A stretch of DNA of 64,000 bases from an uncultured Candidatus Saccharibacteria bacterium (GCA_964517275.1 CAZFBL010000001.1:14144-78143), one strand, 5' to 3'; shown: positions 3,822 through 64,000, numbered from the stretch's first letter. Translations and numbers: made by a program. Notes: generated from the letters alone by a model not told the origin.

Positions 3822-3908
3822 GCCGAAGTGGTGAAATTGGAAAACACGCAGCACTCAAAATGCTGTGGGCGCAAGCCCTTGTGGGTTCGAGTCCCACCTT
3901 CGGCACCA
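3822..3908 (+). tRNA. tRNA-Leu(CAA), 87 nt with long variable arm and encoded CCA
   Basis: Acceptor GCCGAAG/CTTCGGC. Anticodon stem CAGCA/TGCTG with loop CTCAAAA (anticodon CAA). Long extra arm. T-arm GGTTCGAGTCC. 3' GCACCA. Confidence 0.8.
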
Positions 3909-7856: not shown

Positions 7857-7937
7857 ATTTAAAAATATAATAGCTTATTTGATGACTCTTTTCAAGTGAT
7901 AGATTATATTATAAGATGAGTTGGAACAACTTGTTTT

Positions 7938-50264: not shown

Positions 50265-50521
50265 TGTGTTTTATCCGAGTTAAAATATTATAAAGAAAAA
50301 GGTGGTGAAAAATATTTCCTCTGTGCTTCAATTGACCGGATAATTGAAGAATCTGTTGTTATTCTACCACAATTAAAAAAATAATAAACAGGTCTTTTTT
50401 GTTAACAAGTTGTGGAAGAAGAGTGGATAAATTAAAGGCATAAATTAACAGCTTGTTGATTTGACGAAATACTCCTTAAATGCTAATCTGAATTAACAAA
50501 CCTTCTGTCTATTTTAATCCT
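50265..50521. promoter_or_regulatory. DnaA-box cluster upstream of dnaA (oriC part 1)
   Basis: TTATCCGAG (50267-75), CCGGATAA, TGTGGAAGA, AGTGGATAA (8/9 to TGTGGATAA). Confidence 0.5.
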
Positions 50522-50656
50522 ATGTCTATTACTTATCAACCCAAAAAGAAGAAACGCAAGAAAACCCACGGCTTTCGGGCTAGGATGGCTACTCGATACG
50601 GTCGACGGGTTTTGTCTCGTCGCCGGCGTAAACAACGGGAAAAAATAACCGTCTAG
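50522..50656 (+). CDS. rpmH: 50S ribosomal protein L34
   Basis: [44 protein letters not shown]. Not in the ORF track (44 aa). Confidence 0.85.
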
Positions 50657-50742
50657 TTTTATTGACTTAATGAGCGAAGGAAACGAAAATTTGTTTCTAT
50701 TTCCAAGCAAGTGAATTAATATATAGGTAATAAAATTTTTTA

Positions 50743-51081
50743 ATGTTACCTGGAAAATATAAGCTAAAAAAAGAAAGCCATTTCAAGAGAGTTTTCCGTC
50801 AAGGGAAAACCTGCCAAGGAGAATTTATCCGTCTTAAGTTTTTTAGGAATAATTTAGAGATTAGCCGTTTTGCGTTTGTTGTTAGTTTAAAAACATCCAA
50901 AAAAGCCAGTCAGCGGAATAAAATCAGGCGTCAATTAGAAGAAATAATCCGTTCAAGATTAGAATTAATCAAACCCGGACTTGATATGGTTATTTCTGTT
51001 AATCCGGAAATAATTAATCAAAATTACCAAACCATTGAAAAAAAACTGATGAATTTATTCAAAAAAGCTAAACTGATCTAG
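50743..51081 (+). CDS. rnpA: RNase P protein component
   Basis: Basic 112-aa protein following rpmH, with ...RNKIRRQLEE... RNR-like motif. Confidence 0.8.
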   Translation: MLPGKYKLKKESHFKRVFRQGKTCQGEFIRLKFFRNNLEISRFAFVVSLKTSKKASQRNKIRRQLEEIIRSRLELIKPGLDMVISVNPEIINQNYQTIEKKLMNLFKKAKLI

Positions 51082-51082
51082 T

Positions 51083-51808
51083 ATGGAAATATTAATAAAT
51101 TTTTTTAATCAAATCCTTTATTACCCTTTATTCAACGCCCTAATTTGGCTTTATAATAATATCCCAGGCCAAGATTTAGGGATAGCCATCATTGTTTTGA
51201 CCGCTCTAATACGTTTTATTTTATACCCTCTTTCCCAAAAGGCAATCCAGTCTCAAAAAGCGATGGCTAAATTACAGCCGGAGATAAAGGAAATTAGGAA
51301 GAAATACAAAGGGAAAGAAGAACAGGCCAAGGCGATGATGAATTTATATCAGAAATACAAGATTAATCCTTTTTCCGGTTGTCTGCCTATTCTTATTCAA
51401 CTACCCATCCTGTTCGCTCTTTATAGGGTTTTCTTCACCGGTTTAGACCCCCAGAGATTAAATGGACTTTATAGCTTTATTGAACAGCCGACATCGTTAA
51501 GCCCGATGTTTTTGGGGATAGTCGACCTTTCTCAAAGAAGTATCATTTTAGCTGTTTTAACTGGTATTCTTATGTTTATTCAATCTAAAATGATTATGCC
51601 TAAAAAAACAGCTCAACCGACCCAAGGGGTGAAAATAGCTGGTTTGGACATTTCTTCTCTAATGAGTCAACAGATGCTTTACTTTATGCCGTTAATCACT
51701 GTTTTAATTGCTTGGAATTTGCCGGCCGCTCTGCCTCTTTATTGGATAGTTATTACCCTATTCGGAATTATTCAGCAGTATTTTACAAAAGTTAAAATTG
51801 AAGGTTAG
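51083..51808 (+). CDS. yidC: Membrane protein insertase YidC (short Oxa1-like form)
   Basis: LGIAIIVLTALIRFILYPLSQKAIQS...PFSGCLPILIQLPILFALY. Confidence 0.85.
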   Translation: MEILINFFNQILYYPLFNALIWLYNNIPGQDLGIAIIVLTALIRFILYPLSQKAIQSQKAMAKLQPEIKEIRKKYKGKEEQAKAMMNLYQKYKINPFSGCLPILIQLPILFALYRVFFTGLDPQRLNGLYSFIEQPTSLSPMFLGIVDLSQRSIILAVLTGILMFIQSKMIMPKKTAQPTQGVKIAGLDISSLMSQQMLYFMPLITVLIAWNLPAALPLYWIVITLFGIIQQYFTKVKIEG

Positions 51809-51823
51809 AATATAAATACAAGT

Positions 51824-52285
51824 ATGGAGAAAGAAAATCTTATCAAAGATACAATTAACCAGTTATTAAAAATAATCGGAATTGACGGTCAGTTGACTGT
51901 CGATGGTTTAAACCAAGATAATATTTTAGTTAATATCCAGACTGAGCAAGGCGGATTTTTAATTGGTCAGGCCGGAGCTAATTTAAACGCTCTCCAACAC
52001 ATCGCTCGTTTGTTGGTTAATAAGAAAAACAATCAGACGATTCGATTTATCCTGGACGTCAATAATTATCGTCGTCATCGTTTAGAGTTACTGGAAGAGT
52101 TAGCTCAAGATATGGCTAAGCAGGCTTTAACCAGGCGAGTCTCTTTGATTTTACACCCAATGCCGGCCTATGAAAGAAGAATTATTCATTTAGCGTTGGC
52201 TGAACAGCCGGAAATAAACACTCAAAGCACTGGCCAAGAGCCGAAGAGGAGGATAGTCATCAAACCGGTCAGTCAGGATAAATAA
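51824..52285 (+). CDS. jag: Jag/KhpB R3H-domain RNA-binding protein
   Basis: C-terminal R3H YERRIIHLALAE. Downstream of yidC. Confidence 0.75.
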   Translation: MEKENLIKDTINQLLKIIGIDGQLTVDGLNQDNILVNIQTEQGGFLIGQAGANLNALQHIARLLVNKKNNQTIRFILDVNNYRRHRLELLEELAQDMAKQALTRRVSLILHPMPAYERRIIHLALAEQPEINTQSTGQEPKRRIVIKPVSQDK

Positions 52286-52297
52286 ATCGACTACCCA

Positions 52298-53713
52298 ATG
52301 CTTGGTAGAAAAATTACCTATAATACGATTGTGGCGGCTGGGGCTAGAGTTATTAATCTAGCCCTTTCTTTAATTATTATTGGTTTTATCACCCGTTACT
52401 TGGGACAAACTGGTTTTGGCCAATACACAACTATTCTGGCTTTCTTGTACTTCTTCAGCGTTTTGGCTGATTTGGGCCTTTACTCTATTTGTCTGCGGGA
52501 AATTTCCCGACCGACCGCCGATGAGAGAAAAATAGCCAGTAATGCTTTTACTCTGAGATTAGTGGCCGGCTTATTTATTTTCAGCTTAGCCCCCTTAGCC
52601 GGCTATTTCTTCCCTTATCCGGGACAGGTCAAGTTAGGTATTTTGATTGGAGCAATCGGTTTCTGGCTTTTGTCAAATCAGCAGGTTCTGATGAGTGTCT
52701 TCCAAAAGTATCTGCGAGTAGATAAAGTCGCCTTGGCTGATTTCTTGGGTCGGCTGCTTCAATTGAGCTTAGTCCTCTTTTTTATCTGGCAGGAGAAAGA
52801 TTTTCTGTTTATCGTCAGCGCGATGGTTGGAGGCGCTTTGGTTAATTTTCTGCTGGTTTTTATTTTTAGTCAAAAGTATATTCCTATCTCATTGCAATTT
52901 GATTTCATCTTTTGGCGCTCTTTACTTAGAGAATCCCTGCCTCTGGCTTTGGCTATCGTTTTCACAATGATTTATTTTCGGATAGATACTATTATGCTTT
53001 CCCTAATGAAAAGCGCGGCCGAAGTCGGTATTTACGGTTTGGCTTACAAAATTCTGGAAAGCCTGATTTTCTTTCCGGCTATGTTCGTCGGCTTGGTTAT
53101 GCCTCTACTTTCCAGGTACGCCCTGGCCGCTAGGGAAAAATTCAGAAAAGTCAGCCAACAAACTTTAAATGTTTTGCTTATTTTTATCATTCCCATGGTT
53201 GTCGGCACCATCTTTCTTTCTCGGCCGGCAGTTACTTTGATTGCCGGTCGAGAATTTTCTCTTTCGGCCGGCGTTTTGAATATTCTTATTTTTGCGACCG
53301 GCCTTATTTTCTTGGGTACGCTTTTAAGCAACATGATTATTGCCCTAAAGGAACAAAGAAAATTGACTTATATTTACGGCTTAGGGGCTTTATTGAATCT
53401 GGTTGCCAATTTTATTTTTATTCCCAAGTATTCCTATTATGGAGCGGCCGTAACAACCGTTCTGACCGAATTAATTGTTACTTTACTGATGCTGGTCGTT
53501 CTTTATCGGCTTTTGAGAAAATTTATTTCCTTCAGCTCGTTGGTTAAATGCCTGGCGGCCGGCTTGATTATGGCCGCTTTGCTTTATGTCTGGCCGACAG
53601 CTAATTTATTTATCGTAATTATTTTAGCCAGCTTGGCTTACTTCGGTAGTCTGTATCTAATTGGCGGTTTTTCAACCAAAGACCTGTTAGCTTTAGTTAA
53701 GAAAAATGTTTAA
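52298..53713 (+). CDS. Polysaccharide/oligosaccharide flippase (Wzx/PST family)
   Basis: 471 aa with about 12-14 TM. N-terminus RVINLALSLIIIGFITRYLGQTGFGQY is typical of the PST family. Confidence 0.65.
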   Translation: MLGRKITYNTIVAAGARVINLALSLIIIGFITRYLGQTGFGQYTTILAFLYFFSVLADLGLYSICLREISRPTADERKIASNAFTLRLVAGLFIFSLAPLAGYFFPYPGQVKLGILIGAIGFWLLSNQQVLMSVFQKYLRVDKVALADFLGRLLQLSLVLFFIWQEKDFLFIVSAMVGGALVNFLLVFIFSQKYIPISLQFDFIFWRSLLRESLPLALAIVFTMIYFRIDTIMLSLMKSAAEVGIYGLAYKILESLIFFPAMFVGLVMPLLSRYALAAREKFRKVSQQTLNVLLIFIIPMVVGTIFLSRPAVTLIAGREFSLSAGVLNILIFATGLIFLGTLLSNMIIALKEQRKLTYIYGLGALLNLVANFIFIPKYSYYGAAVTTVLTELIVTLLMLVVLYRLLRKFISFSSLVKCLAAGLIMAALLYVWPTANLFIVIILASLAYFGSLYLIGGFSTKDLLALVKKNV

Positions 53714-54983
53714 ATGGCTTCTTTTCTTAATCGCTTATTTGCCTTTCCAGGTTGCTCTTAATCCTTGGCCGGGCATTGATTTGGCCTCTTTACGATTATT
53801 TATTGTTCTGCTTCTAGGCTTTTGGCTAGTTGAGACTTTAATCAGTAGAACTTGGCCGAACTGGGTTTATTTTAAGAACTTACAGAGTCTGACTTTGTTA
53901 TTTTTTTTAGGTCTGGCTTTTTTCTCTTTAATCGGAGCCGAAAACACCATCTGGGGGTTAAGGAAAATCGGTTTTTTCTTGTCCGTCTTTCCTTTATATT
54001 TCTTAGTTTTAATTTTGGTTGATAGTTGGTCGCGGATGAGAAAAATTATTTTAATTTTAATAACCAGTGGTCTGGCTATGGCTTTAATCGGCCTCAGCCA
54101 ATTTTTAGCTCAGTTCGTCTTTGGTCTGGAAAAGGTTTACCAGTTCTGGGCGGTAAATATCGTTCCTCTTTTCTCCGGTTTTAATTTAGGGACGATGATT
54201 TTAGCTTATCCCAGTTGGCTGGTTAATCTTGACGGTCAAACCGTTTTAAGGGCTTTTTCTTTTTTCTCCGACCCTCACGTCTTCAGCTTTTACCTGGGGC
54301 TCCTCTTGCCTCTCGGCTTCATCCTTTATTTAAAAGAAAAAAAACCTTTTCTATTATTTTCCTCCGCCGCCTTATTTACTGCCTTGCTGTTTACTTTTAC
54401 CAGGGGCGCTTATCTGGCCGTTGTCGTCTCTTTTTTAACGCTAGCCTTCTTGGTTTGGAAGTATCTTCAAAAAAGGAAAGCCGCTCTCGGACTTGCCTTA
54501 GTCCTGCTTATTTTTTTGATTCCAGGAACACCAATCGCTGATAGATTTTATTCTTCTTTTGATTTGGACGACGGTTCTAACAAGGGCCGTTTAGAGATGT
54601 GGCAGCAGGCCGGTCAGGGCGGTTTGAAAAACTTGTGGCAGGGGGTCGGCCTTGGCAATTATTCTTTACTGGTTGAACCTGACTTGGATTACCGTAATCC
54701 AGCTACCGCCCACAACCTTTATTTAGATGTTTTTTCAGAAATGGGTATTTTCGCTTTGGTTATCTGGCTGGCCCTGGTTCTTGGGACGCTTGTCCAGTTG
54801 GTTTGGAGACCGGCCCAGTTCGGGCAAGCCGAGGAATATCTTAGACTGGGTTTAATTGGTTCGCTGGTTTACTTAACCGTCCATAGTTTTTTTGAAACAA
54901 CTATCTATAGTCCGGTTGTTTTGGCTCTTTTGATGATTATTTTGGCTTTATCGACTATTATCGCCAAGAAGGGCCTTGATTAA
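53706..54983 (+). CDS. O-antigen ligase-like (Wzy_C) membrane protein, paralogue 1
   Basis: FTFTRGAYLAVVVSF (Wzy_C signature). Polytopic. Confidence 0.65.
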   Translation: MFKWLLFLIAYLPFQVALNPWPGIDLASLRLFIVLLLGFWLVETLISRTWPNWVYFKNLQSLTLLFFLGLAFFSLIGAENTIWGLRKIGFFLSVFPLYFLVLILVDSWSRMRKIILILITSGLAMALIGLSQFLAQFVFGLEKVYQFWAVNIVPLFSGFNLGTMILAYPSWLVNLDGQTVLRAFSFFSDPHVFSFYLGLLLPLGFILYLKEKKPFLLFSSAALFTALLFTFTRGAYLAVVVSFLTLAFLVWKYLQKRKAALGLALVLLIFLIPGTPIADRFYSSFDLDDGSNKGRLEMWQQAGQGGLKNLWQGVGLGNYSLLVEPDLDYRNPATAHNLYLDVFSEMGIFALVIWLALVLGTLVQLVWRPAQFGQAEEYLRLGLIGSLVYLTVHSFFETTIYSPVVLALLMIILALSTIIAKKGLD

Positions 54984-56178
54984 TATGCTCCAGAAGTTTG
55001 TTAATTTGTTAATCTATTTAGTCGCCTTGCTTCTACCGGTTTATTTAATCCGTTTTGAAGTTTTTTCGTTGCCGATTAATTTACTGGAATTAATTATCGC
55101 TATTCTGTTGGCTCTTTGGTTAATTCTGAAAGTAAGCTCGACTCCTTTCCGATTCCGAGGACCAGCCTTTTTTTATCCAATTTTTCTAATCTTTGTTGGT
55201 CTGACTTTAGCCACTTTCTTTTCGGCTGATTTGAGAATAAGCGCTGGTATTTGGAAAAGCTGGTTTATTGTCCCCTGGCTCTATCTGGTCGTTTTAGTTG
55301 ATAATCTACAGACCGAAAAACAAGTCAATAAACTATTAATTGCTCTGACTTTATCCGGCCTGGGCGTTGCTTCAGTCGCTCTTGTCTATCGGCTGACTGG
55401 TCAGTTGACCTATGACGGTCGACTGAATGCCTTTTATCTTTCCCCTAATCATCTGGCTATGTATCTGTCGCCAATTCTCATTCTTTCTTTTTATCTTTAT
55501 TTCTGTTTTAAACGCAGCTTTTTCAAAATATTATTATTGTTAGTCGACTGCTTATTGTTATTGACCGTTTTTTTGACCTATTCCTATGGCGCCTGGCTGG
55601 GTTTATTGACTGCTTTTATTTTTCTGCTGATAATTCTGTATAGAAATAGGGATTGGTTTAGAAATTCAAAGATAGCCCTGGCGGCGATTAGCCTGATTTT
55701 TTTAGTTTTTATTCTAGCCTGCTTGAGTCAAATTCCCAGTCATAAATTCCAGAGCCTGGCTGATTTATCTTATCCCTCTTTGCAGTCGCGATTGGCGATT
55801 TGGCGGAGCGCTTGGCAAATAGCTGTTGACCATCTTTGGTTAGGCATCGGCCCCGGGCTTTTTCAGCAATATTATTTGGACTATCAGAACCAAATGCCTC
55901 CTTACTTGGAATGGGCTGTTCCACAGCCTCATAATCTTTTTTTGGCCTTCTGGTTACAGACTGGCTTGCTTGGTTTAATCGGCTTTATTTGGCTTTTAGC
56001 TCTCTTTTTTAAGCAAATATTCAAGCAAATAAAAAACAGCCATCTGATTGCCTGTTTTTTAATGGCGGCTATGATTTATCTTTTAATCCACGGTTTAATC
56101 GATACTACTTATTGGAAGAATGATTTGTCAATTATCTTTTGGTTGATAATCGGTCTGGCTTCCAGCCGGCTTGCTTAA
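54976..56178 (+). CDS. O-antigen ligase-like (Wzy_C) membrane protein, paralogue 2
   Basis: YSYGAWLGLLTAFIFLL (Wzy_C signature). Polytopic. Confidence 0.65.
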   Translation: MINMLQKFVNLLIYLVALLLPVYLIRFEVFSLPINLLELIIAILLALWLILKVSSTPFRFRGPAFFYPIFLIFVGLTLATFFSADLRISAGIWKSWFIVPWLYLVVLVDNLQTEKQVNKLLIALTLSGLGVASVALVYRLTGQLTYDGRLNAFYLSPNHLAMYLSPILILSFYLYFCFKRSFFKILLLLVDCLLLLTVFLTYSYGAWLGLLTAFIFLLIILYRNRDWFRNSKIALAAISLIFLVFILACLSQIPSHKFQSLADLSYPSLQSRLAIWRSAWQIAVDHLWLGIGPGLFQQYYLDYQNQMPPYLEWAVPQPHNLFLAFWLQTGLLGLIGFIWLLALFFKQIFKQIKNSHLIACFLMAAMIYLLIHGLIDTTYWKNDLSIIFWLIIGLASSRLA

Positions 56179-56341: not shown

Positions 56342-57478
56342 TCAAAGTTCTAAGCTATAAAGCAGACTGTTGAGTTTATTGATAAAAAGAAGATAGTCTT
56401 CCAAGGGGGATAAAAGCAGTTGTTGGGCATCGTAAGACATAGTTTCTTCTTCAGCCTCGGCCGATGGATAAATCTGAATCTTCTCTCCGGTATCTAAATT
56501 AACCCGCCAAAAATTATCAGCCAAGACAACTAACCCTTTGTAATAATCATCAGGCAAGGTGGCTGTGGTCGAAATATTCTTAGGAACGGCGCAGAAAATG
56601 GTTCGGTTATCCTGAGACCAAACGCATTTTTCCGGCAAAGTGACAAAATCCAATTCCTTAGTCGTCTGCTTAGCCAAATTGGCTATTTTTAATTTGAGAT
56701 TTTTGCCCCGTTCATCAGTCTCCGAAAAGAGTATTTTGTCTCCCTGCGGCGACCAAATAACAGTCAAGCCATAAGTTTCGCTAATAAGCTTCTGTAAATG
56801 GCCGTTGGCCAAATCAATTGAATAGACAACGCTTTGTGCTAAACCGCTTGGTCTGGTCCGAATGGATAATTGGCTGGAATTGGGCCACTCAACAATCAAG
56901 TTTTTCATCCGGGTGGCTAAAATATTAGTCCAGTTTGAACCATCCGGATTGGCAATACTAATATTATTGTCTTCAGTCTGCGGATTATAGTATTGATAAG
57001 CGATTTTGTCTTGGTTAGGCGACCAGGTGATGTGTCGGATATTTGAATCAAGCTGGGTCGCTTTTTCGGTTTGGTAATCATAAAGATATTTTTTTATTTC
57101 TCCTCCGTCATCAAAAATAGCAATAACCTTATCTCGCTGGGGTGACCAGAGAGCTTTTAACAAATCGGTTAGTAGATTAGCCGAAACCCTTGTTTTATCG
57201 GAGCCATCAAAATCGGATTCGAAAACATTGCCGTTACCCATTAGATAATACTTGACTTTTTGTCCATCAGCAATCGGACTTAAAATTGATTCTTGGGTGA
57301 TTGTCTTGATTCGACCGGCTTGCTTTAGCTCGGTTGAGGAAGCTGGGCCGGTTGTCGGTTTAGTCGGTTCTTCTTCTTTGAAAAAGTAATTATAAGCAAT
57401 TAAAAAACCTACTACAAGGACAAGTAGGACGATTAAAATGATAAAGATTTTTTTGAGCGACATATTTTTATTTAGCAA
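56342..57478 (-). CDS. Membrane-anchored PD40/TolB-like beta-propeller repeat protein
   Basis: N-terminal TM. Repeated W-SP-(Q/N)-DK-I motifs (WSPQRDKVIAIF, WSPNQDKIAYQ, WSPQGDKILFSE). Confidence 0.55.
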   Translation of the reverse strand: MLNKNMSLKKIFIILIVLLVLVVGFLIAYNYFFKEEEPTKPTTGPASSTELKQAGRIKTITQESILSPIADGQKVKYYLMGNGNVFESDFDGSDKTRVSANLLTDLLKALWSPQRDKVIAIFDDGGEIKKYLYDYQTEKATQLDSNIRHITWSPNQDKIAYQYYNPQTEDNNISIANPDGSNWTNILATRMKNLIVEWPNSSQLSIRTRPSGLAQSVVYSIDLANGHLQKLISETYGLTVIWSPQGDKILFSETDERGKNLKLKIANLAKQTTKELDFVTLPEKCVWSQDNRTIFCAVPKNISTTATLPDDYYKGLVVLADNFWRVNLDTGEKIQIYPSAEAEEETMSYDAQQLLLSPLEDYLLFINKLNSLLYSLEL

Positions 57479-57491
57479 GAGTTAACTATTA

Positions 57492-57953
57492 TTAGGGGCC
57501 AGCTGTTTCTATGCACTGACAAGAACTGAAATCCCAGGAGTAGTTCGGCTCACAGGGTATTTCGCATTGAGCCGGGCAATGGCCCGGATGGCACGGTTCA
57601 TGCCAACTGACTAAGTCTGGATTGATTGTGTTTAAAATTAAATAGGCGGCTAATGCTAATAATAGGCCGGAAATAGCTCCCCAAATATATTTCTTGGCTT
57701 CTTCTTTAGAGGTAATTGTTCCGGAGAGCATATAGTTGAAGCCGCCATAAACTAAAGCGGCTAGAGCGGCGATACCGACTAGACCTAGGCCAAAAAGATA
57801 AATATAGCGAAGATAGGTCAATAAATCAGGTTCGGTTTCGGTCATCTGGGGGATGCTTACTTCTATTTCGTAAGCAGTTTGACCGATAAAAGGAATTAAT
57901 AATAAACAGCCGAGCGCGGAAGACAAGATAATTTTAATTAATAGTTTTTTCAT
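57492..57953 (-). CDS. VirB2/TrbC-pilin-like small membrane protein with Cys-rich C-terminal tail
   Basis: Signal peptide, two hydrophobic helices, then HEPCHPGHCPAQCEIPCEPNYSWDFSSCQCIE (7 Cys). Confidence 0.4.
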   Translation of the reverse strand: MKKLLIKIILSSALGCLLLIPFIGQTAYEIEVSIPQMTETEPDLLTYLRYIYLFGLGLVGIAALAALVYGGFNYMLSGTITSKEEAKKYIWGAISGLLLALAAYLILNTINPDLVSWHEPCHPGHCPAQCEIPCEPNYSWDFSSCQCIETAGP

Positions 57954-57976
57954 TGATTATGAATTAGTCGTAAAAC

Positions 57977-58723
57977 CTAAGGGATGAGGTTTATTTCTGC
58001 TTTAGTTTGGGCATCTTGTAGAGAGTTATTCTTGTTTTCTAAATTAATAGTCAAGTCTTCTTCAATTGATTGGCCTACTTGGCCTACTTTAATAATAACG
58101 ACGTTAGGATGTTCGTTGCCGGTTTGGGACAATTCTTTTTCTCCCCAGTTCCATTGGTAATTTAGTTCGTTTAAATTTTGAATGTTGAAAAAATAAGGTT
58201 GGGCCGTGAATTTTACTTCCTGATTAGCTTTGATTTGATATTGAGAAGTTAATCGGCTAAGTTTCCGGGGGAATATATCAGTTTTTAAAACAACTTCTGG
58301 TTCAGCCGTTTTTAAAGAAAGAAGAGGCGAATAACCCAGGAAATTATTTTGGTTGTCTCTAATCAGTACCTTGATCAAGTATTGTTGGTTGAGGCTCTGG
58401 CTGGTCTTAAATCTGAAAATCTGTTTATCCTGGCCGGAGTCTTTTTTTTGAAGTTGGCCATCCAGAAACCATTGATAATTTAGCTCCTGGAGATTGGTTT
58501 CCAGCTGGCCGGTCAGCCAGTCAATATTAGCCACCACTTCAATCATGCTTTCCTGGCTGGGCAAGGCCTTGCCCGGGTAATTAGTCGGGACGTAGACATC
58601 GGTTGACCAAGTTAGAGTGATTGATATCCTTTGGGCTTGGCCTCCTGTGAAAGGAAACAATATAAAGAGACAGCAACAGATAAGCGGGAGGAAATATCTA
58701 ATTAAAATTATTCGTTTATTCAT
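57977..58723 (-). CDS. Secreted hypothetical protein (signal peptide)
   Basis: N-terminal hydrophobic leader. Internal duplication (LNYQWFLDG / LNYQWNWGE). Confidence 0.45.
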   Translation of the reverse strand: MNKRIILIRYFLPLICCCLFILFPFTGGQAQRISITLTWSTDVYVPTNYPGKALPSQESMIEVVANIDWLTGQLETNLQELNYQWFLDGQLQKKDSGQDKQIFRFKTSQSLNQQYLIKVLIRDNQNNFLGYSPLLSLKTAEPEVVLKTDIFPRKLSRLTSQYQIKANQEVKFTAQPYFFNIQNLNELNYQWNWGEKELSQTGNEHPNVVIIKVGQVGQSIEEDLTINLENKNNSLQDAQTKAEINLIP

Positions 58724-59124
58724 TTTATTTTAGTCGGCTTTGCTAGGGTTTTGGACAGATAGCCTTTCTCTTCCAGATAGATGCTGATAACAAAAATAGT
58801 CCAGGTTGGCAATAAATCGCCTAGGCCGGGAATTAGTTCAGTTAAAAAAGTTGTTCCAAATCTAGCGCCAGGAAAACGATGTAAGCGAACAAGACACCAG
58901 AGTCCGAGAATCCCAGCCGTAACCAGATCAATAAGTCGAAAAAGCAGTAAATCTAATCCCAGCCAGTCGCAAAGGTCGTTAATTGCCGCGATAAGGCCAA
59001 TAAGGAAGAATTCAACGTCACTAATTTCGCTAGCGGCCGGAGATAATTCTTTTCTGACTTTAACTTTTTTCTTAGTGGCCTTAGCCCTTCTGGCCTGATT
59101 AAGAGAAGCTGTATAATTAGGCAT
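58720..59124 (-). CDS. Small membrane protein (basic N-terminus, 2-3 TM)
   Basis: ORF with a hydrophobic core. Overlaps the next gene by 4 nt. Confidence 0.4.
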   Translation of the reverse strand: MPNYTASLNQARRAKATKKKVKVRKELSPAASEISDVEFFLIGLIAAINDLCDWLGLDLLLFRLIDLVTAGILGLWCLVRLHRFPGARFGTTFLTELIPGLGDLLPTWTIFVISIYLEEKGYLSKTLAKPTKIK

Positions 59125-59142
59125 ATTTGTTGTCTATTTTAA

Positions 59143-60957
59143 TCAATAGGCCGTACCGGCGGTCTCCTTCGTCTCCTTTCCGTTCTCTTCGGCCAGTTCT
59201 TTTTTGGCCTGTTCAATCTCCATCAATTGAGCTGGGTCAGAAGTGATAATCTGGTCTTCGGTGTAGGAGGCGATTACTTGGATAGCTACGTGTTTTAGGC
59301 CAGCGAAGAAAATACCCTCGCCGACGCTGGCCGCTAGTAATCTGCTTTTTTCTTGTTCGGTTAAATGAAAGGTTTCCTTAACCACGTCAATTGTCGCTGG
59401 CGACTGCTTTAATAGGAGCTGTAAAGAGGAGTTAGTGACAATCGGTTTGCCGTATTTGGATTTCATAAAGTCAGCTATGTCTTGAGTGATAGTAGTCAGT
59501 CCCAGGTAATACTTTCGACACCTTTTGGCGATTCCGAAAAGGAAAGAAGCGGCGTCCTCGTGCTGCATCATCCACCAAGCCTCGTCAACGACTAAAATCC
59601 TTTTCTTCTTTTGAGAGCGGACAATATTCCAGATATAACGAAGAATGACATACATAGCTAAAGGCCTTAATTCGTCCTCCATGTCGCGAATACTAAAGAC
59701 GACTAATTTTTTACCTAATTCTATGTTGGTTGGTTCATTAAAGAAGCCGGCGTAGCTGCCACTAACATATTTTTCTAAACGGGTGGCCAAACTTTCTCCG
59801 CCAGTCATTCCTTTTAAAACAGTATAGAGGTCCTGCATTAAAGGCGGATTGATTTTGGTGAAATCTGACTCGGCGGTGATATCGCGGGCGGCGTAAGTTT
59901 GGCTGAGCGCTTTATCTATGACAGCGTCTTCTTCCGGAGTCAAACCACCAAGCATTATTCTTAAAAGGCCGACTAGATTGATAATGTTGCTTCTTAAAAG
60001 ATTGGCCGGCTTGTCGTCTGGTCCGGGCAAGGGCAAGTCAAACGGATTAAGATGGTGAGTTGAAGTCAGGGAAATATCAATAAAGCTGCCGCCAACCGTT
60101 TCAGTCAGATATTTATATTCTTTTTCCGGGTCAATGATAATTACTTCTGCCTCCTGCATCAAAGAACGGAGAACTTCCAATTTAACTGAATATGATTTTC
60201 CTGAGCCGGATTTGGCAAAAACGACCATATTCCCGTTTTCCAAACTAAAACGGTCGAATAAGATTAGGGAGTTATTGTGAGTGTTAATGCCGTAAAGAAT
60301 CCCCTTATTGTCAGTTAAATCAGAAGAAATGAAAGGGAAAGTTGATGATAAGGGAGCGGTGTTAAAGCTGTTATGAATGATTAGTTTGTCTTCTTCTAAA
60401 GGCAAGGTTGAAATAAGGCCTTGTTCCTGTTGAAAGACAGCTGGCTTGGCATAGATGCTCTGGTTTTCTAGAATAGCCCTGATTTCGTTCTCAATTTCAT
60501 CTAACTGTTTGATTGAGTCGGAAAAAAATGTAATATAAAGGCCGAATTTGAAAAGCCTTTCCATGCCTTGCTGTAATTTGTCGCGTAAATCTTCAACATT
60601 TTGAAAGGCGGTTTCCAAAACTGGACTACGTACTCTGCCTTTCTCTTGCTGAAGAGATATTTGAGACTGAATTTGAGCCGTCTTCTTAGTTAGATTTTTT
60701 AAAACAGTTCTTGTCTCTATCGGATGAATGAATAAAGAAACATTCATTTCTTGGTCAAAAGTGATGATCGGCGAGAGCCAGCCAGTGTTCAAAACGCTCG
60801 GATAAGTAAAAACAAAGATGGTCCGGCCGTATTTTTGGCCAAGCTGGAAATAGCCGGATTCAATCTTAAGCCCAGCCGGAGCAATCAAATTAACCAAGTC
60901 TGTTTTAGAATCTATTTCCAAGGGTTCTTCTTTTTTTATTTTTTTGAACAGAGACAT
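59143..60957 (-). CDS. VirB4/TraC-like T4SS ATPase, C-terminal ATPase part
   Basis: Walker A VVFAKSGSGKSYSV. Walker B RILVVDEAWWMM. 604 aa. Confidence 0.8.
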   Translation of the reverse strand: MSLFKKIKKEEPLEIDSKTDLVNLIAPAGLKIESGYFQLGQKYGRTIFVFTYPSVLNTGWLSPIITFDQEMNVSLFIHPIETRTVLKNLTKKTAQIQSQISLQQEKGRVRSPVLETAFQNVEDLRDKLQQGMERLFKFGLYITFFSDSIKQLDEIENEIRAILENQSIYAKPAVFQQEQGLISTLPLEEDKLIIHNSFNTAPLSSTFPFISSDLTDNKGILYGINTHNNSLILFDRFSLENGNMVVFAKSGSGKSYSVKLEVLRSLMQEAEVIIIDPEKEYKYLTETVGGSFIDISLTSTHHLNPFDLPLPGPDDKPANLLRSNIINLVGLLRIMLGGLTPEEDAVIDKALSQTYAARDITAESDFTKINPPLMQDLYTVLKGMTGGESLATRLEKYVSGSYAGFFNEPTNIELGKKLVVFSIRDMEDELRPLAMYVILRYIWNIVRSQKKKRILVVDEAWWMMQHEDAASFLFGIAKRCRKYYLGLTTITQDIADFMKSKYGKPIVTNSSLQLLLKQSPATIDVVKETFHLTEQEKSRLLAASVGEGIFFAGLKHVAIQVIASYTEDQIITSDPAQLMEIEQAKKELAEENGKETKETAGTAY

Positions 60958-60958
60958 G

Positions 60959-61615
60959 TTATTCCATTCTTAACTCCTTAGCCTTGCCCAGCTCGGGCTC
61001 TTCTTTGGCGCTGGGGTTGTATAGTTTGTAGAAAAGTTCAATCAGTTCATCGGTTTTTAAGGGAACCGCCTTAAGACCAGTGCTTCTTAAACCGGCTGTA
61101 ATGAACTCAACTCTTTGCCAGAGATTATTTTTTAATTCCTCGAAGCTTTCTTGGGAGCTGGAATCCTTATTCTTTTTAAAACCGCCTAATAAGTTACCAA
61201 AGAAACCAATCTTTTTAGTAATGGAGGGATTATAAGGAACGATTAAGTAGAAGGATTCGGTCATAATATTGGTTGTCTCGGTCAGGCCTTTAACAAAATC
61301 AAGATATTCTGAAGTCTGTACTTTTAGTAATTCATTTTCTTGTTTTTCCTGATGTTGCTTTAATGTTTCTAAATACGGCTCAATGTCGAATTTTCGGGAA
61401 GCGGCCATAATTTGGATAGGAAAATCAAGCGAATTTAGAAGGGCCTGATAACGATGGACAATAGCGTCCTGCTCATCAGTTGATTTAAGGGCAAAATTAA
61501 TACTGCTAGTCATTAAAATAGCCCGCAGTCCACCGCTCTTGAGAATCAGGACGCCGTCCTTTATTTCTTTAATTGGTAAGTGTTTTTGGATAGAGGCTGA
61601 TTTTTGTTGAGACAT
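60959..61615 (-). CDS. VirB4-like N-terminal domain encoded as a separate ORF
   Basis: LPIKEIKDGVLILKSGGLRAILMTSSINFALKSTDEQDAI resembles Gram-positive VirB4 (PrgJ/TcpF) N-termini. The stop TAA is 1 nt before the ATG of 59143..60957, in a different frame. Confidence 0.5.
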   Translation of the reverse strand: MSQQKSASIQKHLPIKEIKDGVLILKSGGLRAILMTSSINFALKSTDEQDAIVHRYQALLNSLDFPIQIMAASRKFDIEPYLETLKQHQEKQENELLKVQTSEYLDFVKGLTETTNIMTESFYLIVPYNPSITKKIGFFGNLLGGFKKNKDSSSQESFEELKNNLWQRVEFITAGLRSTGLKAVPLKTDELIELFYKLYNPSAKEEPELGKAKELRME

Positions 61616-61893
61616 TATTTTTTTCGCCAGAGATATAATCTGGGCTTCCTTAAGTATTTGACTAATGAGCCCAAAAGAGAAACAAACGGCCGGCCGTTGA
61701 CTCTATAAAAAGCTAAAGCGCCGCAGAGAGCCGCCACCGGAATGGCTACAATAATAAAAGCGGTCAGCTTAAGAAAAAACCAAAGGATAAAAAGCAAGCC
61801 GGCCCCGCCTCCTAAGTAGAAAAACTGTTTTAAGGTTAAGGGACCGATAATTTTGTCTTCTACTTCAATAAATTGGGGAACATTGAACTGCAT
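61615..61893 (-). CDS. PrgI-family (VirB3-like) small T4SS membrane protein
   Basis: MQFNVPQFIEVEDKIIGPLTLKQFFYLGGGAGLL plus two TM segments. Stop overlaps the next start (TAATG). Confidence 0.6.
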   Translation of the reverse strand: MQFNVPQFIEVEDKIIGPLTLKQFFYLGGGAGLLFILWFFLKLTAFIIVAIPVAALCGALAFYRVNGRPFVSLLGSLVKYLRKPRLYLWRKK

Positions 61894-61936
61894 ATTTTGG
61901 CAAGCAAAATAATTTTTCCTGACTTTCTTGAGAAAA

Positions 61937-62497
61937 TTAATGTCCGTTTTTTAAATCGACCACATTTCCCTCTAGACGCGGTCCATCTGCCTTGGCTTGA
62001 TCTGATGTTTCAATTGGTTCGCGATAAGTATCTCCTCTGGCTGGCTGTGATTCGGCTCTTTCAGGCGGACTATCTTTTAATTTAACCACCGGCGATGGAC
62101 TTGGCTCTTTGACAGTTCCTTCTTCACGCGGCCAGGACGGGACCCGATGAATCTTTTTTAAGTTTTCTTTGACTGGTAGAAAAATAGTCTGATTAATATC
62201 TCTGGCCAGCTGACGAGCCGGTTCTTCGGCTAAGCCGCATTCTTTCTGGAGCGACTTGACAAAATTAACGATGTTGGTTTCGCCTAATAAGATTAGGCCG
62301 GTCACGTAAGAAGCCTGGACAAGCTGTTCCCTATCCAAATTGTTTTTTAAACCGATTTCTCTGACTTGGTTGGCAGTATTTTCATTAAAAAATAAGTTGC
62401 GCATCTCTGGCGGAAGTTGAAAATAAATACCGTATCTTTTTCTAATAGTCGGATTATTAACTTTTTTTAATTTTTTTACTTGTAAGGAAGTAAGCAT
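61937..62497 (-). CDS. Hypothetical protein with Pro/charged-rich C-terminus
   Basis: ORF only. Confidence 0.4.
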   Translation of the reverse strand: MLTSLQVKKLKKVNNPTIRKRYGIYFQLPPEMRNLFFNENTANQVREIGLKNNLDREQLVQASYVTGLILLGETNIVNFVKSLQKECGLAEEPARQLARDINQTIFLPVKENLKKIHRVPSWPREEGTVKEPSPSPVVKLKDSPPERAESQPARGDTYREPIETSDQAKADGPRLEGNVVDLKNGH

Positions 62498-62501
62498 GTT
62501 T

Positions 62502-64000
62502 TTATTTCTTCAGCGCTTCTCGCGACTTTTCTAATTCTTCTTCGCTTATTTTCCGGCCGCCGGCGCCGGCCGGGCTGGCTGTTTTGATGAATGGTTCGCC
62601 CTCTGGCGCGTATAAGCTTCTACCCAAGTCAGTTCCTAGATAATCTTGGACAGGCCGTGGAAAGCTTTCAATATTTTCCTTGGTCATTATTTTCTGGATT
62701 CTGCTTCTTAAACCCGGGTCAGGTCCCATCTGTCCCAAATGCGCGCTAGTCCAATGACCATCTCTAAAGGCCTTAACAATAGCTTCCTGGATTTTATCTA
62801 TTTCTTCAGGCACTATTTTCTTGGCTTGTTCAGGCTTAATTTTGTTAACTACTTCCTGGACGTCTCTGTTTACTTCTCCGGCTAAACTAGGCATGGCTTT
62901 AACTAATTTTGATTCCTGGCCGTAGCGCTGGGCTAATTTTAGTCCTTTTTTGCGCTGCTCCGGTTTCTTAAGCATATCCAAATCGTCGTTTTCATGAAGC
63001 TGAAGCATTCTGGCTACTTTTCCTTCAGCCGGCGCTCGGTCGAAAGTATCAACCAAATTTTTGCTGGCCCAGCCCTTGATAGATTCTTTTTCCTGCTGAA
63101 CCATGGCCCGGTTTTGCTCTAAGCCGCGGAAAGCCGGAATAGCTAATTTGCCGGCTATTTTAATTTTGGCTATCTGACTTAGTCCTCTCTGGATTAGGCC
63201 GCCCTCCAGCTTTCCGCTAGGCGTCTTTTTGGGCGGCGGAGCCATTTTGGCTAGGGTTCGTCTACTGACTTGGCCCGGCCACTTGGCTGCTCTGGCACTG
63301 ACTCCTTTAACTACACCCATAGCTCCTTGGGCGCCGTAAACACCCATTTTCTGAGCGACGATTAATCCGCCAAAAAGCAGGCCAATAATGCAAATAAACT
63401 GAAGAAATAAAGAGGGTACTGATAATAAGACAAAAGCGCTGGTTTCCGTAAAGCCGGAGGCATTAATAATATTTTCAGTTTGATTTCTAATCAACGAAGT
63501 AAAAGCGCCGCCTTCAGCCGCTTTAACAGCTAAGTAAACAAAAAAGAAATAAATAGGAGCAAAAAAGACCCATTTTAGAAAAGTATTCCACCATTGGCGA
63601 AAAAGATGGGCGGTATGAGGCAGAATAAACATTAGCCAGGCAATTGGAGCTAAAATAAGCAGTATCCAAAGGATAATTAAACGGACGATTAGGAAAAAAG
63701 CGCCTACCCCTAAGGCGAAAGTGGCGCAAAGAATAAGAATTATACCCAAAAAGAGAGAAGATACGACCATTAAGACGCCGCCGGCTCCGGCCCCTAATGC
63801 ATCGCCAAAGCCGGATTCCTTGTTTATTTCATAGACACTTTGGATGTTCAGGGCCTTAGCCAGTTGGGCACTTACTCCGGTCGTGCTGCCTATTTGGTCA
63901 TAAAAGAAATAGGTCAAGACCTGGGAAAAATCAATAATCAGACCGGCCAAGACCAAACTAAAATTAATTAAGAGAGCGGCGATAACTAATTTAGGCAAGA
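62502..64000 (-). CDS. Polytopic membrane protein with large C-terminal soluble domain; VirB6/TrbL-like candidate (N-terminus may lie beyond the window)
   Basis: About 6 TM helices in the first ~230 aa, then a hydrophilic charged region. Positioned with the VirB3/VirB4 homologues. Confidence 0.4.
   Translation of the reverse strand, partial: LPKLVIAALLINFSLVLAGLIIDFSQVLTYFFYDQIGSTTGVSAQLAKALNIQSVYEINKESGFGDALGAGAGGVLMVVSSLFLGIILILCATFALGVGAFFLIVRLIILWILLILAPIAWLMFILPHTAHLFRQWWNTFLKWVFFAPIYFFFVYLAVKAAEGGAFTSLIRNQTENIINASGFTETSAFVLLSVPSLFLQFICIIGLLFGGLIVAQKMGVYGAQGAMGVVKGVSARAAKWPGQVSRRTLAKMAPPPKKTPSGKLEGGLIQRGLSQIAKIKIAGKLAIPAFRGLEQNRAMVQQEKESIKGWASKNLVDTFDRAPAEGKVARMLQLHENDDLDMLKKPEQRKKGLKLAQRYGQESKLVKAMPSLAGEVNRDVQEVVNKIKPEQAKKIVPEEIDKIQEAIVKAFRDGHWTSAHLGQMGPDPGLRSRIQKIMTKENIESFPRPVQDYLGTDLGRSLYAPEGEPFIKTASPAGAGGRKISEEELEKSREALKK

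What the first reader, a model, noticed from the sequence alone, without database searches (positions are those of the whole stretch)
57492..57953. VirB2-like pilin candidate with a seven-cysteine C-terminal tail
Seen in sequence. The 153-aa protein has a signal peptide and two hydrophobic helices, which is pilin-like TrbC/VirB2 topology. It is followed by a 35-residue tail HEPCHPGHCPAQCEIPCEPNYSWDFSSCQCIETAGP rich in Cys, His and Pro. It sits at the downstream end of the T4SS-like module.

Inference. The Cys-rich tip could form a disulfide-knotted or metal-binding adhesin module displayed on a conjugative-pilus-like filament. That would be an unusual elaboration of a T4SS pilin.
Basis: partly seen in the sequence, partly recalled or inferred. 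Interest (0 to 1): 0.5.

Follow-up and report, generated by a model that had tools for sequence, protein, structure and literature searches.

The report
CPR secretion pilin with swappable cysteine knob

Summary
The ORF is real: minus strand, 57492-57953, 153 aa, with a Sec-type signal peptide and two hydrophobic helices. The tail has six cysteines, not seven; the seventh (C16) lies in the signal peptide.

The protein is an orthologue of the known Patescibacterial VirB2-like "T4SS_pilin" family (PF18895). It sits in a dnaA-proximal T4SS cluster whose gene order is conserved in relatives.

The tail is a recurrent, pilin-specific module: C-x4-C-x3-C-x3-5-C-x7-12-C-x-C with a conserved Trp. It occurs 26 times in 24 of 119 homologues. 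It can be attached directly, through Pro-rich linkers, or in tandem. AlphaFold2 predicts a compact fold (pLDDT 84-95). It matches no Pfam family and no significant PDB fold.

The histidines are not conserved. Cys counts in family tails are mostly even (95 of 119), which favours disulfides over metal binding.

Orthologues at the same locus carry no tail, this module, or other Cys-rich tails. Two near-identical strain pairs differ only in the tail-coding segment, which indicates cassette-like replacement. Elsewhere PF18895 is fused to cell-wall enzyme domains, so C-terminal additions are common in this family.

The pilin identification is already known. The module and its swapping appear undescribed. 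Filament formation, display and adhesion are inferred, not shown.

The parts
57492..57953 (-). Pilin-like gene, 153 aa plus stop codon (stop at 57492-57494)
   Evidence: ORF listing and sequence. PF18895 T4SS_pilin 21.2 bits. 119 homologues found.
57873..57953 (-). Sec-type signal peptide, residues 1-27 (MKK, a hydrophobic run, then ...GQTA|YE). It contains C16, the 'seventh' cysteine.
   Evidence: Hydropathy and AF2 helix 2-27. The cleavage site is inferred from the aligned A-x-A|[DEGA]Y of homologues.
57825..57872 (-). Acidic, variable mature N-terminal segment, residues 28-43 (net charge of the 28-48 segment is -5). Predicted to be outside the cell.
   Evidence: Charge count and 58% mean pairwise identity. 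pLDDT below 50 at residues 28-38.
57729..57824 (-). Helix 1 / transmembrane segment 1, residues 44-75
   Evidence: AF2 helix 44-75 with pLDDT 89-94 and hydropathy.
57708..57728 (-). Inter-helix turn, residues 76-82. The Lys-rich stretch K83-K88 (SKEEAKK) follows at the start of helix 2. Predicted to face the cytoplasm, or the lumen if a filament forms.
   Evidence: Three Lys and two Glu in residues 76-90, net charge +1, against -5 for each of the two termini. By analogy, the F-pilus loop faces the lumen (PMC5018250).
57624..57707 (-). Helix 2 / transmembrane segment 2, residues 83-110. This is the most conserved part (...AAYLILNTI).
   Evidence: AF2 helix 83-110. The core (residues 44-116) has 84% mean pairwise identity. 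The PF18895 match covers residues 57-110.
57609..57623 (-). Conserved boundary motif N111-P-D-L-V115, after which homologues diverge completely
   Evidence: Invariant or nearly invariant I110, N111, P112 and L114. Nucleotide identity between strain variants ends right after ...GATTTAGTTA, which encodes DLV.
57495..57608 (-). C-terminal tail S116-P153. Acidic (5 D/E, no K/R) and predicted to be extracellular.
   Evidence: AF2 pLDDT 84-95 over residues 111-150.
57513..57593 (-). Six-cysteine module C121-C147 (C-x4-C-x3-C-x3-C-x10-C-x-C, with W140). Beta-hairpin at 138-141 / 146-149.
   Evidence: Cys spacing conserved in 26 copies. The tail-only AF2 model has the same secondary structure, pLDDT 83.9. 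A local HMM finds the module only at pilin C-termini.
56342..57478 (-). Downstream gene: 378-aa membrane-anchored beta-propeller (TolB/DPP-IV-like). Its position next to the pilin is conserved.
   Evidence: Weak propeller hits. Same position in L001, L003, L005 and L091.
57977..58723 (-). Upstream 248-aa protein with an N-terminal hydrophobic, signal-like segment. No family assigned; position conserved.
   Evidence: Syntenic genes of 233-258 aa in relatives.
58720..59124 (-). 134-aa membrane protein; position conserved
   Evidence: Syntenic genes of 126-160 aa in relatives.
59143..60957 (-). VirB4-type ATPase (CD1110 family, monoderm type), 604 aa
   Evidence: NF045971 384.9 bits against a cut-off of 325. 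PF19044 P-loop_TraG 85 bits.
60959..61615 (-). TraC-like/TrsD-like protein of 218 aa, corresponding to the N-terminal part of VirB4
   Evidence: Weak hits to TrsD and to the VirB4 N-terminus. The syntenic genes in relatives carry PF26593 TraC-like.
61615..61893 (-). PrgI (VirB3-like) protein, 92 aa
   Evidence: PF12666 PrgI 47.9 bits against a cut-off of 27. ORF listing.
62502..63998 (-). Possible VirB6/TrbL-like polytopic membrane protein. It probably continues beyond the end of the window.
   Evidence: PF04610 TrbL 20.2 bits, below the 25.9 cut-off.

Best explanation
The gene encodes the single VirB2-like pilin (PF18895 family) of a chromosomal, dnaA-proximal type IV secretion system. No relaxase or coupling-protein match was seen among the cluster genes scanned. 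The organism is a Patescibacterium (CPR), with Portnoybacteria/Paceibacteria-like relatives.

Proposed path of the protein:
1. It is exported by Sec and the signal peptide is removed after about residue 27.
2. The mature protein sits in the membrane as a helical hairpin. The acidic N-terminus is outside, the Lys-bearing loop is inside, and the C-terminus is outside.
3. After the conserved NPDLV boundary, the last 38 residues or so form a compact mini-domain on a six-cysteine scaffold, most likely held by three disulfides. The last four Cys form a Trp-containing beta-hairpin unit; a C-x4-C lies in front of it.
4. [quoted passage not shown] If it does not, the knob sits on the cell surface.

The scaffold is conserved but its surface residues vary. 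The whole tail is exchanged, lost, duplicated or placed on Pro-rich stalks between closely related strains, apparently by recombination within or next to the conserved helix-2 coding region. The knob is therefore best read as a variable contact or specificity determinant, for recognising the host cell surface and/or evading pilus-targeting phages. It is not part of the secretion machinery.

Shown here: gene, topology signals, family membership, synteny, module conservation, tail replacement between near-identical strains.
Inferred: signal cleavage site, disulfides, filament formation, display, adhesion or specificity role.
For: Family and context:
- PF18895 hit in the protein (21.2 bits) and in 60 of 64 homologues. 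There are 119 homologues, all from Patescibacteria where named, and the 80 genome loci are mostly titled as Patescibacterial/CPR lineages.
- Cluster with VirB4 (384.9 bits), TraC-like and PrgI (47.9 bits) genes, next to dnaA, rnpA and yidC.
- The same gene order is found in L001, L003, L005 and L091.
- This is the only pilin gene in the window.
- The literature reports VirB2-like pilins as essential in a Saccharibacterium and widespread near virB4 and dnaA (PMC10633639, PMC12102498).

Topology:
- Net charges are -5 (N-terminal segment 28-48), +1 (loop 76-90) and -5 (C-terminal segment 114-153). The tail has no K or R.
- In F/pED208 pili the loop faces the lumen and both termini lie on the outside (PMC5018250).

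Module:
- Six invariant Cys in 26 copies and a nearly invariant Trp.
- P of about 4e-8 against the window's Cys frequency.
- AF2 pLDDT 84-95 in the full-length model, and the same fold in the tail-only model.
- The module was found only on pilins, both locally and among full-length single-stretch matches in a search of 1.84 billion representative proteins (P0039, P0070, P0140).

Disulfides:
- Even Cys counts in 95 of 119 Cys-bearing tails (p = 3e-11), and in 62 of 68 tails of 130 aa or less.

Variability and swapping:
- Core identity is 84%, against 46% for non-Cys tail positions.
- Nine protein pairs have heads 90-100% identical but tails of different classes.
- L094 and L091 are 100% identical over 942 nt. 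Then 15 mismatches fall in about 100 nt of the helix-2 coding region, and the alignment ends exactly at the tail.
- L095 and L096 are about 100% identical on both sides of a divergent island of about 240 nt that codes for the tail.
Against: - No evidence here, or in the papers read, that PF18895 proteins form a filament.
- Homology to classical TrbC/VirB2 could not be demonstrated (hhalign probability 1.4%).
- The protein itself scores below the Pfam gathering threshold.
- No disulfide-forming enzyme (DsbA- or VKOR-like) was evident in the 64-kb window. The rest of the genome was not available.
- Disulfide connectivity could not be read, because model coordinates are not returned.
- Orthologues at the same locus have no tail at all, so the knob is dispensable for the core function.
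- PF18895 hairpins fused to domains of 300-800 aa in other lineages are hard to reconcile with a major filament subunit. They hint that the hairpin may simply be a membrane anchor.
- The strain comparisons rest on short metagenomic contigs (1.1-1.7 kb), which could in principle be chimeric.
Confidence: 0.55

Rival explanations
1. The PF18895 hairpin does not polymerise. It is a two-helix membrane anchor associated with the T4SS, and it displays whatever C-terminal domain is attached directly on the cell surface. Here that domain is a small Cys knob; elsewhere it is a cell-wall enzyme. The knob would still be an extracellular interaction module, but not one carried on a pilus.
For: - In other Patescibacteria the same domain is followed by YkuD, NlpC/P60, VanY, SLT or lamin-tail domains, or by other tails of hundreds of residues.
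- No sequence or fold link to filament-forming VirB2/TraA could be shown.
- Gram-positive T4SSs generally lack pili (PMC12102498, PMC12857230).
Against: - The family is annotated as pilin.
- Structure-based annotation in a cultivated Saccharibacterium called its members pilins, and they are essential (PMC10633639).
- The topology and the short basic loop match VirB2/TraA pilins.
- A knob of about 30 aa is small enough to decorate a filament (own estimate, not tested).
Confidence: 0.25
2. The Cys/His/Pro-rich tail is a metal-binding site (a zinc ribbon or a metallothionein-like or Fe-S-like cluster) rather than a disulfide scaffold.
For: - There are six Cys and three His in 36 residues of the window's protein.
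- An even Cys count is also compatible with Cys4 metal sites.
- No Dsb-like gene was seen in the window.
Against: - All three His are replaced by T/S/N/D/K/R in homologues.
- There are no CxxC knuckles. The spacings are x4, x3, x3-5, x7-12 and x1.
- The tail is Sec-exported and predicted to be extracellular, and there is no twin-arginine signal that would allow export of a cofactor-loaded protein.
- The only structural neighbours, all non-significant, are disulfide-rich toxin and EGF-like modules.
Confidence: 0.07
3. The tail is a pro-region or cargo that is cleaved off at the conserved NPDLV boundary during maturation. RP4 TrbC loses its C-terminal residues before cyclisation. The tail could be discarded or released as a free Cys-rich peptide.
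For: - There is a sharply conserved boundary motif directly before the variable tail.
- Tail-less orthologues end about 9 residues after it.
- C-terminal processing of TrbC/VirB2-type pilins is established (own knowledge, not checked here).
Against: - A discarded pro-region would not be expected to keep six invariant Cys, a Trp and a confidently predicted fold, or to be duplicated or set on Pro-rich stalks.
- No TraF-like maturation peptidase was noticed among the cluster genes scanned.
- Enzyme domains fused at the same position argue for retained, tethered domains.
Confidence: 0.08
4. The Cys-rich tail is an artefact, produced by a frameshift, read-through or assembly error extending a tail-less pilin gene.
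For: Tail-less orthologues exist at the same locus.
Against: - The same module with the same Cys spacing occurs in 24 independent homologues from many samples.
- The exact protein is recorded in three sources (NCBI, JGI/IMG, Logan), on one contig.
- The next gene starts 13 nt after the stop codon.
Confidence: 0.01

Closest known systems
Patescibacterial VirB2-like pilins (Pfam PF18895 T4SS_pilin; Wang et al. 2023, Quinonero-Coronel et al. 2025)
   Same: - Same family by sequence.
- Signal peptide plus two hydrophobic helices.
- Encoded beside virB4, prgI and the TraC-like gene, in a cluster near dnaA in which no relaxase was seen.
- Monoderm-type (MPF-FATA-like) VirB4.
   Different: - The published descriptions that I read discuss arrays of divergent pilin paralogues. 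They do not discuss C-terminal domains. In PMC12102498, 'cysteine' appears only in the VirB1 context.
- Here there is a single pilin gene. Its variation lies in a swappable C-terminal six-Cys module.
Classical conjugative pilins TrbC/VirB2 (PF04956) and F-type TraA
   Same: - Small Sec-exported protein with a helical hairpin and a short basic loop.
- Both termini are predicted to be outside, as in the F/pED208 pilus.
- Encoded in a T4SS cluster.
   Different: - No demonstrable sequence or profile similarity and no specific fold hit.
- Classical pilins have no appended folded domain. Their C-termini are short, trimmed or cyclised.
- The host is a monoderm.
Small disulfide-rich modules: CXCXC/BR3P-type repeats (PF03128), EGF-like modules and knottins
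   Same: - The last four Cys (C-x3-C-x10-C-x-C, with an aromatic-x-Trp-Asp hairpin) resemble repeat units in proteins that carry PF03128 (P0121, P0123) and in bacterial repeat proteins (P0120, P0126).
- The weak, non-significant Foldseek neighbours are a spider-toxin knottin and EGF-like modules.
   Different: - The tail itself hits no Pfam family at E of 1 or below.
- All fold matches have E of 5 or more.
- The Cys spacing fails the knottin consensus.
- The full six-Cys module was found only on pilins.
Variable pilins used for antigenic or host-range variation (Bartonella and Anaplasma VirB2 paralogues; Neisseria type IV pilin cassettes)
   Same: A conserved assembly core is combined with an exposed, hypervariable part that changes by recombination. 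The comparison with Bartonella and Anaplasma VirB2 paralogues is made for Patescibacterial pilin arrays in PMC12102498.
   Different: - Here the variation is seen between strains at a single-copy gene, as replacement of a whole C-terminal module.
- No silent cassettes or paralogue arrays were seen in the window.
- The Neisseria analogy comes from my own knowledge and concerns an unrelated pilus type.

Membership tests
PF18895 T4SS_pilin (Patescibacterial VirB2-like pilin) | Match to the Pfam model at or above the gathering score | tested here: inconclusive
   - The protein itself scores 21.2 bits against a cut-off of 26.6, E = 3e-4, over residues 57-110.
- 60 of 64 aligned homologues hit PF18895 at E of 0.01 or below, best 2.8e-8.
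- Orthologues 65-70% identical (P0004, P0010) carry precomputed PF18895 hits.
PF18895 T4SS_pilin (Patescibacterial VirB2-like pilin) | Signal peptide plus two hydrophobic helices joined by a short polar or basic loop | tested here: met
   Hydropathy, AF2 helices 2-27, 44-75 and 83-110, and charge distribution.
PF18895 T4SS_pilin (Patescibacterial VirB2-like pilin) | Encoded within or next to a Patescibacterial T4SS cluster (virB4, prgI, TraC-like/TrsD gene) | tested here: met
   VirB4 384.9 bits, PrgI 47.9 bits and a TraC-like gene lie within 4 kb upstream. The synteny is conserved in four relatives.
Classical TrbC/VirB2 pilin (PF04956) | Sequence or profile homology to VirB2/TrbC | tested here: not met
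   - hhalign of the 64-sequence family alignment against five annotated VirB2/TrbC proteins gave probability 1.4% and E = 0.036.
- PF04956 was hit by 1 of 64 members, at E = 0.0094.
- The VirB2/TrbC alignment is small, so sensitivity was limited.
Classical TrbC/VirB2 pilin (PF04956) | Pilin fold specifically similar to solved T4SS pilins | tested here: inconclusive
Classical TrbC/VirB2 pilin (PF04956) | Polymerises with phospholipid into an extracellular filament; matured by trimming or cyclisation | not testable with these tools
   This needs cryo-EM/ET, lipid analysis or mass spectrometry.
Knottin / inhibitor cystine knot | Six Cys with spacing C-x3-7-C-x3-6-C-x0-5-C-x1-4-C-x4-13-C and a knotted 1-4, 2-5, 3-6 connectivity | tested here: not met
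   - The observed spacing is 4, 3, 3-5, 7-12, 1. Loops 4 and 5 fall outside the consensus, which I give from my own knowledge.
- The best knottin fold hit has E = 5.0 and TM 0.46.
- Connectivity was not readable.
Zinc ribbon / Cys-His metal site | Two CxxC-type (or CPxC-type) knuckles, or conserved Cys/His ligand sets | tested here: not met
   There is no CxxC in the tail. H118, H122 and H125 are not conserved in any of the aligned modules.
CXCXC repeat (PF03128, BR3P-type) | Match to the PF03128 model | tested here: not met
   The tail gives no Pfam hit at E of 1 or below. The only resemblance is partial profile matches (positions 11-34) to proteins that carry PF03128.

The most novel reading that the evidence does not exclude
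The C-terminal region of the Patescibacterial T4SS pilin is a recombination-shuffled cassette site. In this reading, a conserved polymerising hairpin displays interchangeable disulfide-rich knobs: single, tandem, on stalks, or absent. These knobs set which host cell surface the epibiont's essential T4SS filament can engage, or let it escape pilus-specific phages. That would be a population-level equivalent of pilin antigenic variation. The six-Cys module would be a new pilin-restricted domain family.
Probability: 0.3. Interest if true: 0.7.

Novelty: new variant of a known kind. Interest (0 to 1): 0.5.

Why it matters
The T4SS and its pilins are essential for the epibiotic life of the only genetically tractable Patescibacterium. 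What the machine touches or transports is unknown.

A surface-exposed, scaffolded, rapidly exchanged knob on the pilin is a concrete candidate for the host-contact or specificity determinant. It gives a direct experimental handle: swap or delete the tail, then score attachment, host range and phage sensitivity.

It also defines a small disulfide-rich module with no Pfam family. And it shows that the PF18895 hairpin is a general carrier for extracellular domains in CPR bacteria. This matters for annotation, because many long "pilins" are fusions with cell-wall enzymes. It also bears on the open question of whether monoderm T4SSs really build pili.

Tried and rejected
2. Foldseek against the PDB with the tail-only model gave seven hits, all with E of 5 or more. 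There is no knottin, EGF or zinc-ribbon assignment.
3. A family-profile sequence search against PDB chains found nothing meaningful.
4. hhalign of the family against five VirB2/TrbC proteins fetched from plasmids gave probability 1.4%.
5. A word-indexed protein search with the tail alignment failed twice: first the query was too short, then there were only 2 candidates and no hits.
6. The exhaustive profile search with the tail worked. However, most hits were partial, multi-repeat Cys-rich proteins. Only three full-length single-stretch matches appeared, and all were pilins. Clustering at 50% identity hides most module-bearing pilins, so no census was possible.
7. PHROGs gave no hits for the pilin or its neighbours.
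8. A look for an exported CxxC (DsbA-like) protein in the window found none. This says nothing about the rest of the genome.
9. Disulfide connectivity could not be derived, because model coordinates are not exposed.
10. dN/dS was not attempted. The module-bearing orthologues with DNA in hand are only 44-66% identical at the protein level, so synonymous sites are probably saturated.
11. Considered and rejected: a RiPP or SCIFF-like precursor, because the tail is fused to a Sec-exported membrane hairpin; and an Fe-S ferredoxin-like motif, because of the wrong spacing, Sec export and lack of a Tat signal.

Full report
**Observation**

The ORF exists at 57492-57953, on the minus strand. It encodes 153 aa from an ATG, and the stop-to-stop frame is only one codon longer. 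Hydropathy shows an N-terminal signal-like segment (MKK followed by a hydrophobic run, residues 1-27) and two hydrophobic helices. AlphaFold2, run with a 64-sequence alignment, gives helices 2-27, 44-75 and 83-110 (mean pLDDT 82.8).

The quoted tail is correct in sequence, but it has six cysteines: C121, C126, C130, C134, C145 and C147. The seventh Cys of the protein is C16, in the signal peptide. The quoted tail is 36 residues long, not 35. Cys makes up 0.73% of residues in the window's long ORFs. Six Cys in 27 residues has P of about 4e-8, and this is the densest Cys cluster in the window.

**Identity and context**

The protein gives a sub-threshold hit to Pfam PF18895 T4SS_pilin (21.2 bits against a cut-off of 26.6). 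It also gives a weak hit to the Mycoplasma ICE pilin-like family NF045849.

A database search returned 119 homologues. Those that are named come from Patescibacteria, including Portnoybacteria. Many carry precomputed PF18895 hits, and 60 of 64 aligned members hit PF18895.

The gene lies in a co-directional cluster on the minus strand, in this order:
- a possible VirB6/TrbL-like gene (weak hit),
- a 186-aa gene,
- PrgI/VirB3-like (47.9 bits),
- a TraC-like/TrsD-like gene,
- VirB4 of the monoderm CD1110 type (384.9 bits),
- a 134-aa membrane protein,
- a 248-aa protein with an N-terminal signal-like segment,
- the pilin,
- a membrane-anchored beta-propeller.

The cluster sits a few kb from Wzy/polysaccharide genes and from jag, yidC, rnpA and dnaA. 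The same gene order occurs in four related contigs.

This matches published descriptions of the Patescibacterial T4SS. It is related to monoderm conjugation machinery, is often dnaA-proximal, usually lacks a relaxase, and has VirB2-like pilins that are essential in Southlakia epibionticum (PMC12102498, PMC10633639, PMC12857230). The pilin identification is therefore sound, but it is already known. Only one pilin gene is present in the 64-kb window.

**The tail is a real module**

In homologues the conserved core ends at ...LILNTINPDLV. After that point the sequences diverge completely.

Twenty-four of the 119 homologues carry 26 copies of the same module: C-x4-C-x3-C-x3-5-C-x7-12-C-x-C, usually with N-C-P at the second Cys and a nearly invariant Trp. 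The module is attached in three ways:
- directly after the core, as in the window;
- after Pro/Ser-rich linkers of 20-50 residues (P0017, P0024, P0032, P0035, P0070, P0075);
- in tandem (P0012, P0014).

The three His residues of the window's tail are not conserved.

AlphaFold2 predicts the tail with pLDDT 84-95. It has a short helical turn and a beta-hairpin (138-141 / 146-149). A tail-only run reproduces this fold (pLDDT 83.9).

The tail hits no Pfam family, and no PDB fold matches significantly (best E = 5).

An exhaustive profile search of 1.84 billion representative proteins gave full-length, single-stretch matches only to pilins (P0039, P0070, P0140). The other hits matched only the last four Cys (C-x3-5-C-x9-10-C-x-C, with an aromatic-x-Trp-Asp hairpin). 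They were repeat proteins, some of which carry the CXCXC repeat PF03128. In about 900 kb of fetched Patescibacterial loci, a local HMM found the module only at pilin C-termini.

**Disulfides rather than metal**

Four observations point this way:
- Net charges are -5 for the mature N-terminal segment, +1 for the loop (three Lys), and -5 with no K or R for the tail. This fits an N-out / loop-in / C-out topology after Sec export.
- Across unique family tails that contain Cys, 95 of 119 have an even count (p = 3e-11). Among tails of 130 aa or less, 62 of 68 are even. This bias is the one expected for exported disulfide-bonded proteins. That logic is established knowledge (Dutton et al. 2008), cited from memory.
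- There are no CxxC knuckles and no conserved His.
- There is no Tat signal.

No Dsb-like gene was seen in the window, but the rest of the genome is unavailable.

**Tail variability and replacement**

Among 13 orthologues that carry the module, mean pairwise identity is 84% in the core, 46% at non-Cys tail positions, and 58% in the exposed N-terminal segment.

Among the 119 homologues, the tails fall into these classes:
- 23 scored by the module pattern (a 24th, P0017, was caught only by the direct scan),
- 34 with other Cys-rich tails,
- 33 with short tails (typically ...NWSLILPE),
- 25 with long tails that have few Cys,
- 4 in which the boundary motif was not located.

Syntenic orthologous loci carry different tail types: none in L003, linker plus module in L001, and a 19-Cys tail in L005. 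Nine protein pairs have heads 90-100% identical but tails of different classes.

At the DNA level there are two clear cases.
- L094 (tail-less) and L091 (with module) are 100% identical over 942 nt, spanning the upstream gene and the 5' part of the pilin gene. Fifteen mismatches then fall in about 100 nt of the helix-2 coding region. The alignment stops exactly after the DLV codons.
- L095 (linker plus module) and L096 (Cys-free tail) are about 100% identical on both sides of a divergent island of about 240 nt, which is the tail-coding end of the gene.

These are signatures of localised allele replacement between close strains. The caveat is that the contigs are short metagenomic assemblies.

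**Wider family**

Among 98 PF18895-like ORFs in the 86 loci held at that point (80 from the species-representative genome scan plus six contigs fetched earlier), 45 have other Cys-rich tails and 19 have long tails with few Cys. Several are fusions to YkuD, NlpC/P60, VanY, SLT or lamin-tail domains. A C-terminal extracellular addition is therefore a general property of this family. The six-Cys knob is one clade-restricted solution.

**Mechanism**

By analogy, if this hairpin polymerises, each subunit would display its knob on the outer surface of the filament. If it does not, the knob sits on the cell surface.

A conserved scaffold, variable surface residues, optional stalks, tandem copies and strain-level replacement together point to a contact or specificity determinant. 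The likely roles are host-surface recognition by an epibiont, or escape from pilus-binding phages. They do not point to a core secretion component, since tail-less orthologues exist.

Filament formation, tail retention, disulfide bonding and an adhesive role are all inferred.

**Comparison and membership**

Membership of the PF18895 family is supported at family level. Membership of classical TrbC/VirB2 could not be shown: hhalign probability was 1.4%, and fold searches were non-specific. Knottin, zinc-ribbon and PF03128 membership tests were not met.

No paper in the searchable library links Patescibacterial pilins with cysteine-rich tails. The key genomic survey mentions cysteine only for VirB1.

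**Verdict**

This is a known kind of gene (Patescibacterial T4SS pilin) carrying an apparently undescribed, pilin-restricted six-Cys module that is exchanged between strains. I class it as a new variant of a known kind, of moderate interest.

Noticed in passing
window 48909-56178 and 56342-63998: The T4SS-like cluster lies within about 6 kb of dnaA (48909-50264), rnpA, yidC and jag. This is the origin-proximal placement reported for Patescibacterial T4SSs. The same arrangement, including two Wzy-like genes and a polysaccharide flippase between them, is conserved in related contigs.
   Followed up: partly
window 61615-61893 (-): A 92-aa PrgI (VirB3-like) gene, 47.9 bits. It overlaps the start of the TraC-like gene by one base.
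   Followed up: yes
window 60959-61615 and 59143-60957 (-): The VirB4 function is split. A 218-aa TraC-like/TrsD-like protein, matching the N-terminal part of VirB4 models, is followed directly by a 604-aa ATPase. The same split is seen in all syntenic relatives.
   Followed up: partly
L076, L077, L062, L084, L049 (genome-contig loci): In other Patescibacteria, the PF18895 'pilin' hairpin, or in L076 an ORF found with the family profile, is fused to cell-wall-active or other extracellular domains. These are YkuD L,D-transpeptidase, NlpC/P60, VanY, SLT and lamin-tail domain, giving 'pilins' of 250-860 aa.
   Followed up: partly
L094 vs L091 (9201-10700); L095 vs L096: Near-identical strains differ only in the tail-coding 3' end of the pilin gene. 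In the first pair the break begins in the helix-2 coding region. In the second pair it begins just after the core, in the linker-coding region. The upstream gene, and in the second pair most of the downstream gene, are about 100% identical.
   Followed up: yes
window 56342-57478 (-): A 378-aa protein with an N-terminal membrane anchor and weak TolB/DPP-IV-type beta-propeller hits always follows the pilin gene in relatives. It may be an unrecognised component or partner of this T4SS.
   Followed up: no
window 57977-58723 and 58720-59124 (-): Two conserved genes lie between virB4 and the pilin. One is a 134-aa membrane protein. The other is a 248-aa protein with an N-terminal signal-like segment and only a weak PKD-like hint. 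Neither has a family assignment. Their coding regions overlap by 4 nt.
   Followed up: no
window 6996-7874 (-), around residue 169: This is the second most Cys-dense stretch in the window (CLSNSCLNCPFSCPG..., 5 Cys in 27 aa), in a 287-aa ORF (6993-7856). It was not examined.
   Followed up: no
window 23601-23936 (+) and 3822-3908 (+): A tmRNA gene (tag peptide ANLKVAPAYA) and a tRNA-Leu(CAA) gene. The window is chromosomal, with 40.8% G+C.
   Followed up: no
P0140; P0012, P0014; P0046, P0056, P0058: The tail modules combine in several ways. P0140 has the six-Cys module followed by a different Cys-containing extension. P0012 and P0014 have two tandem six-Cys modules. P0046, P0056 and P0058 have tails with 19-25 Cys on otherwise orthologous pilins.
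   Followed up: partly
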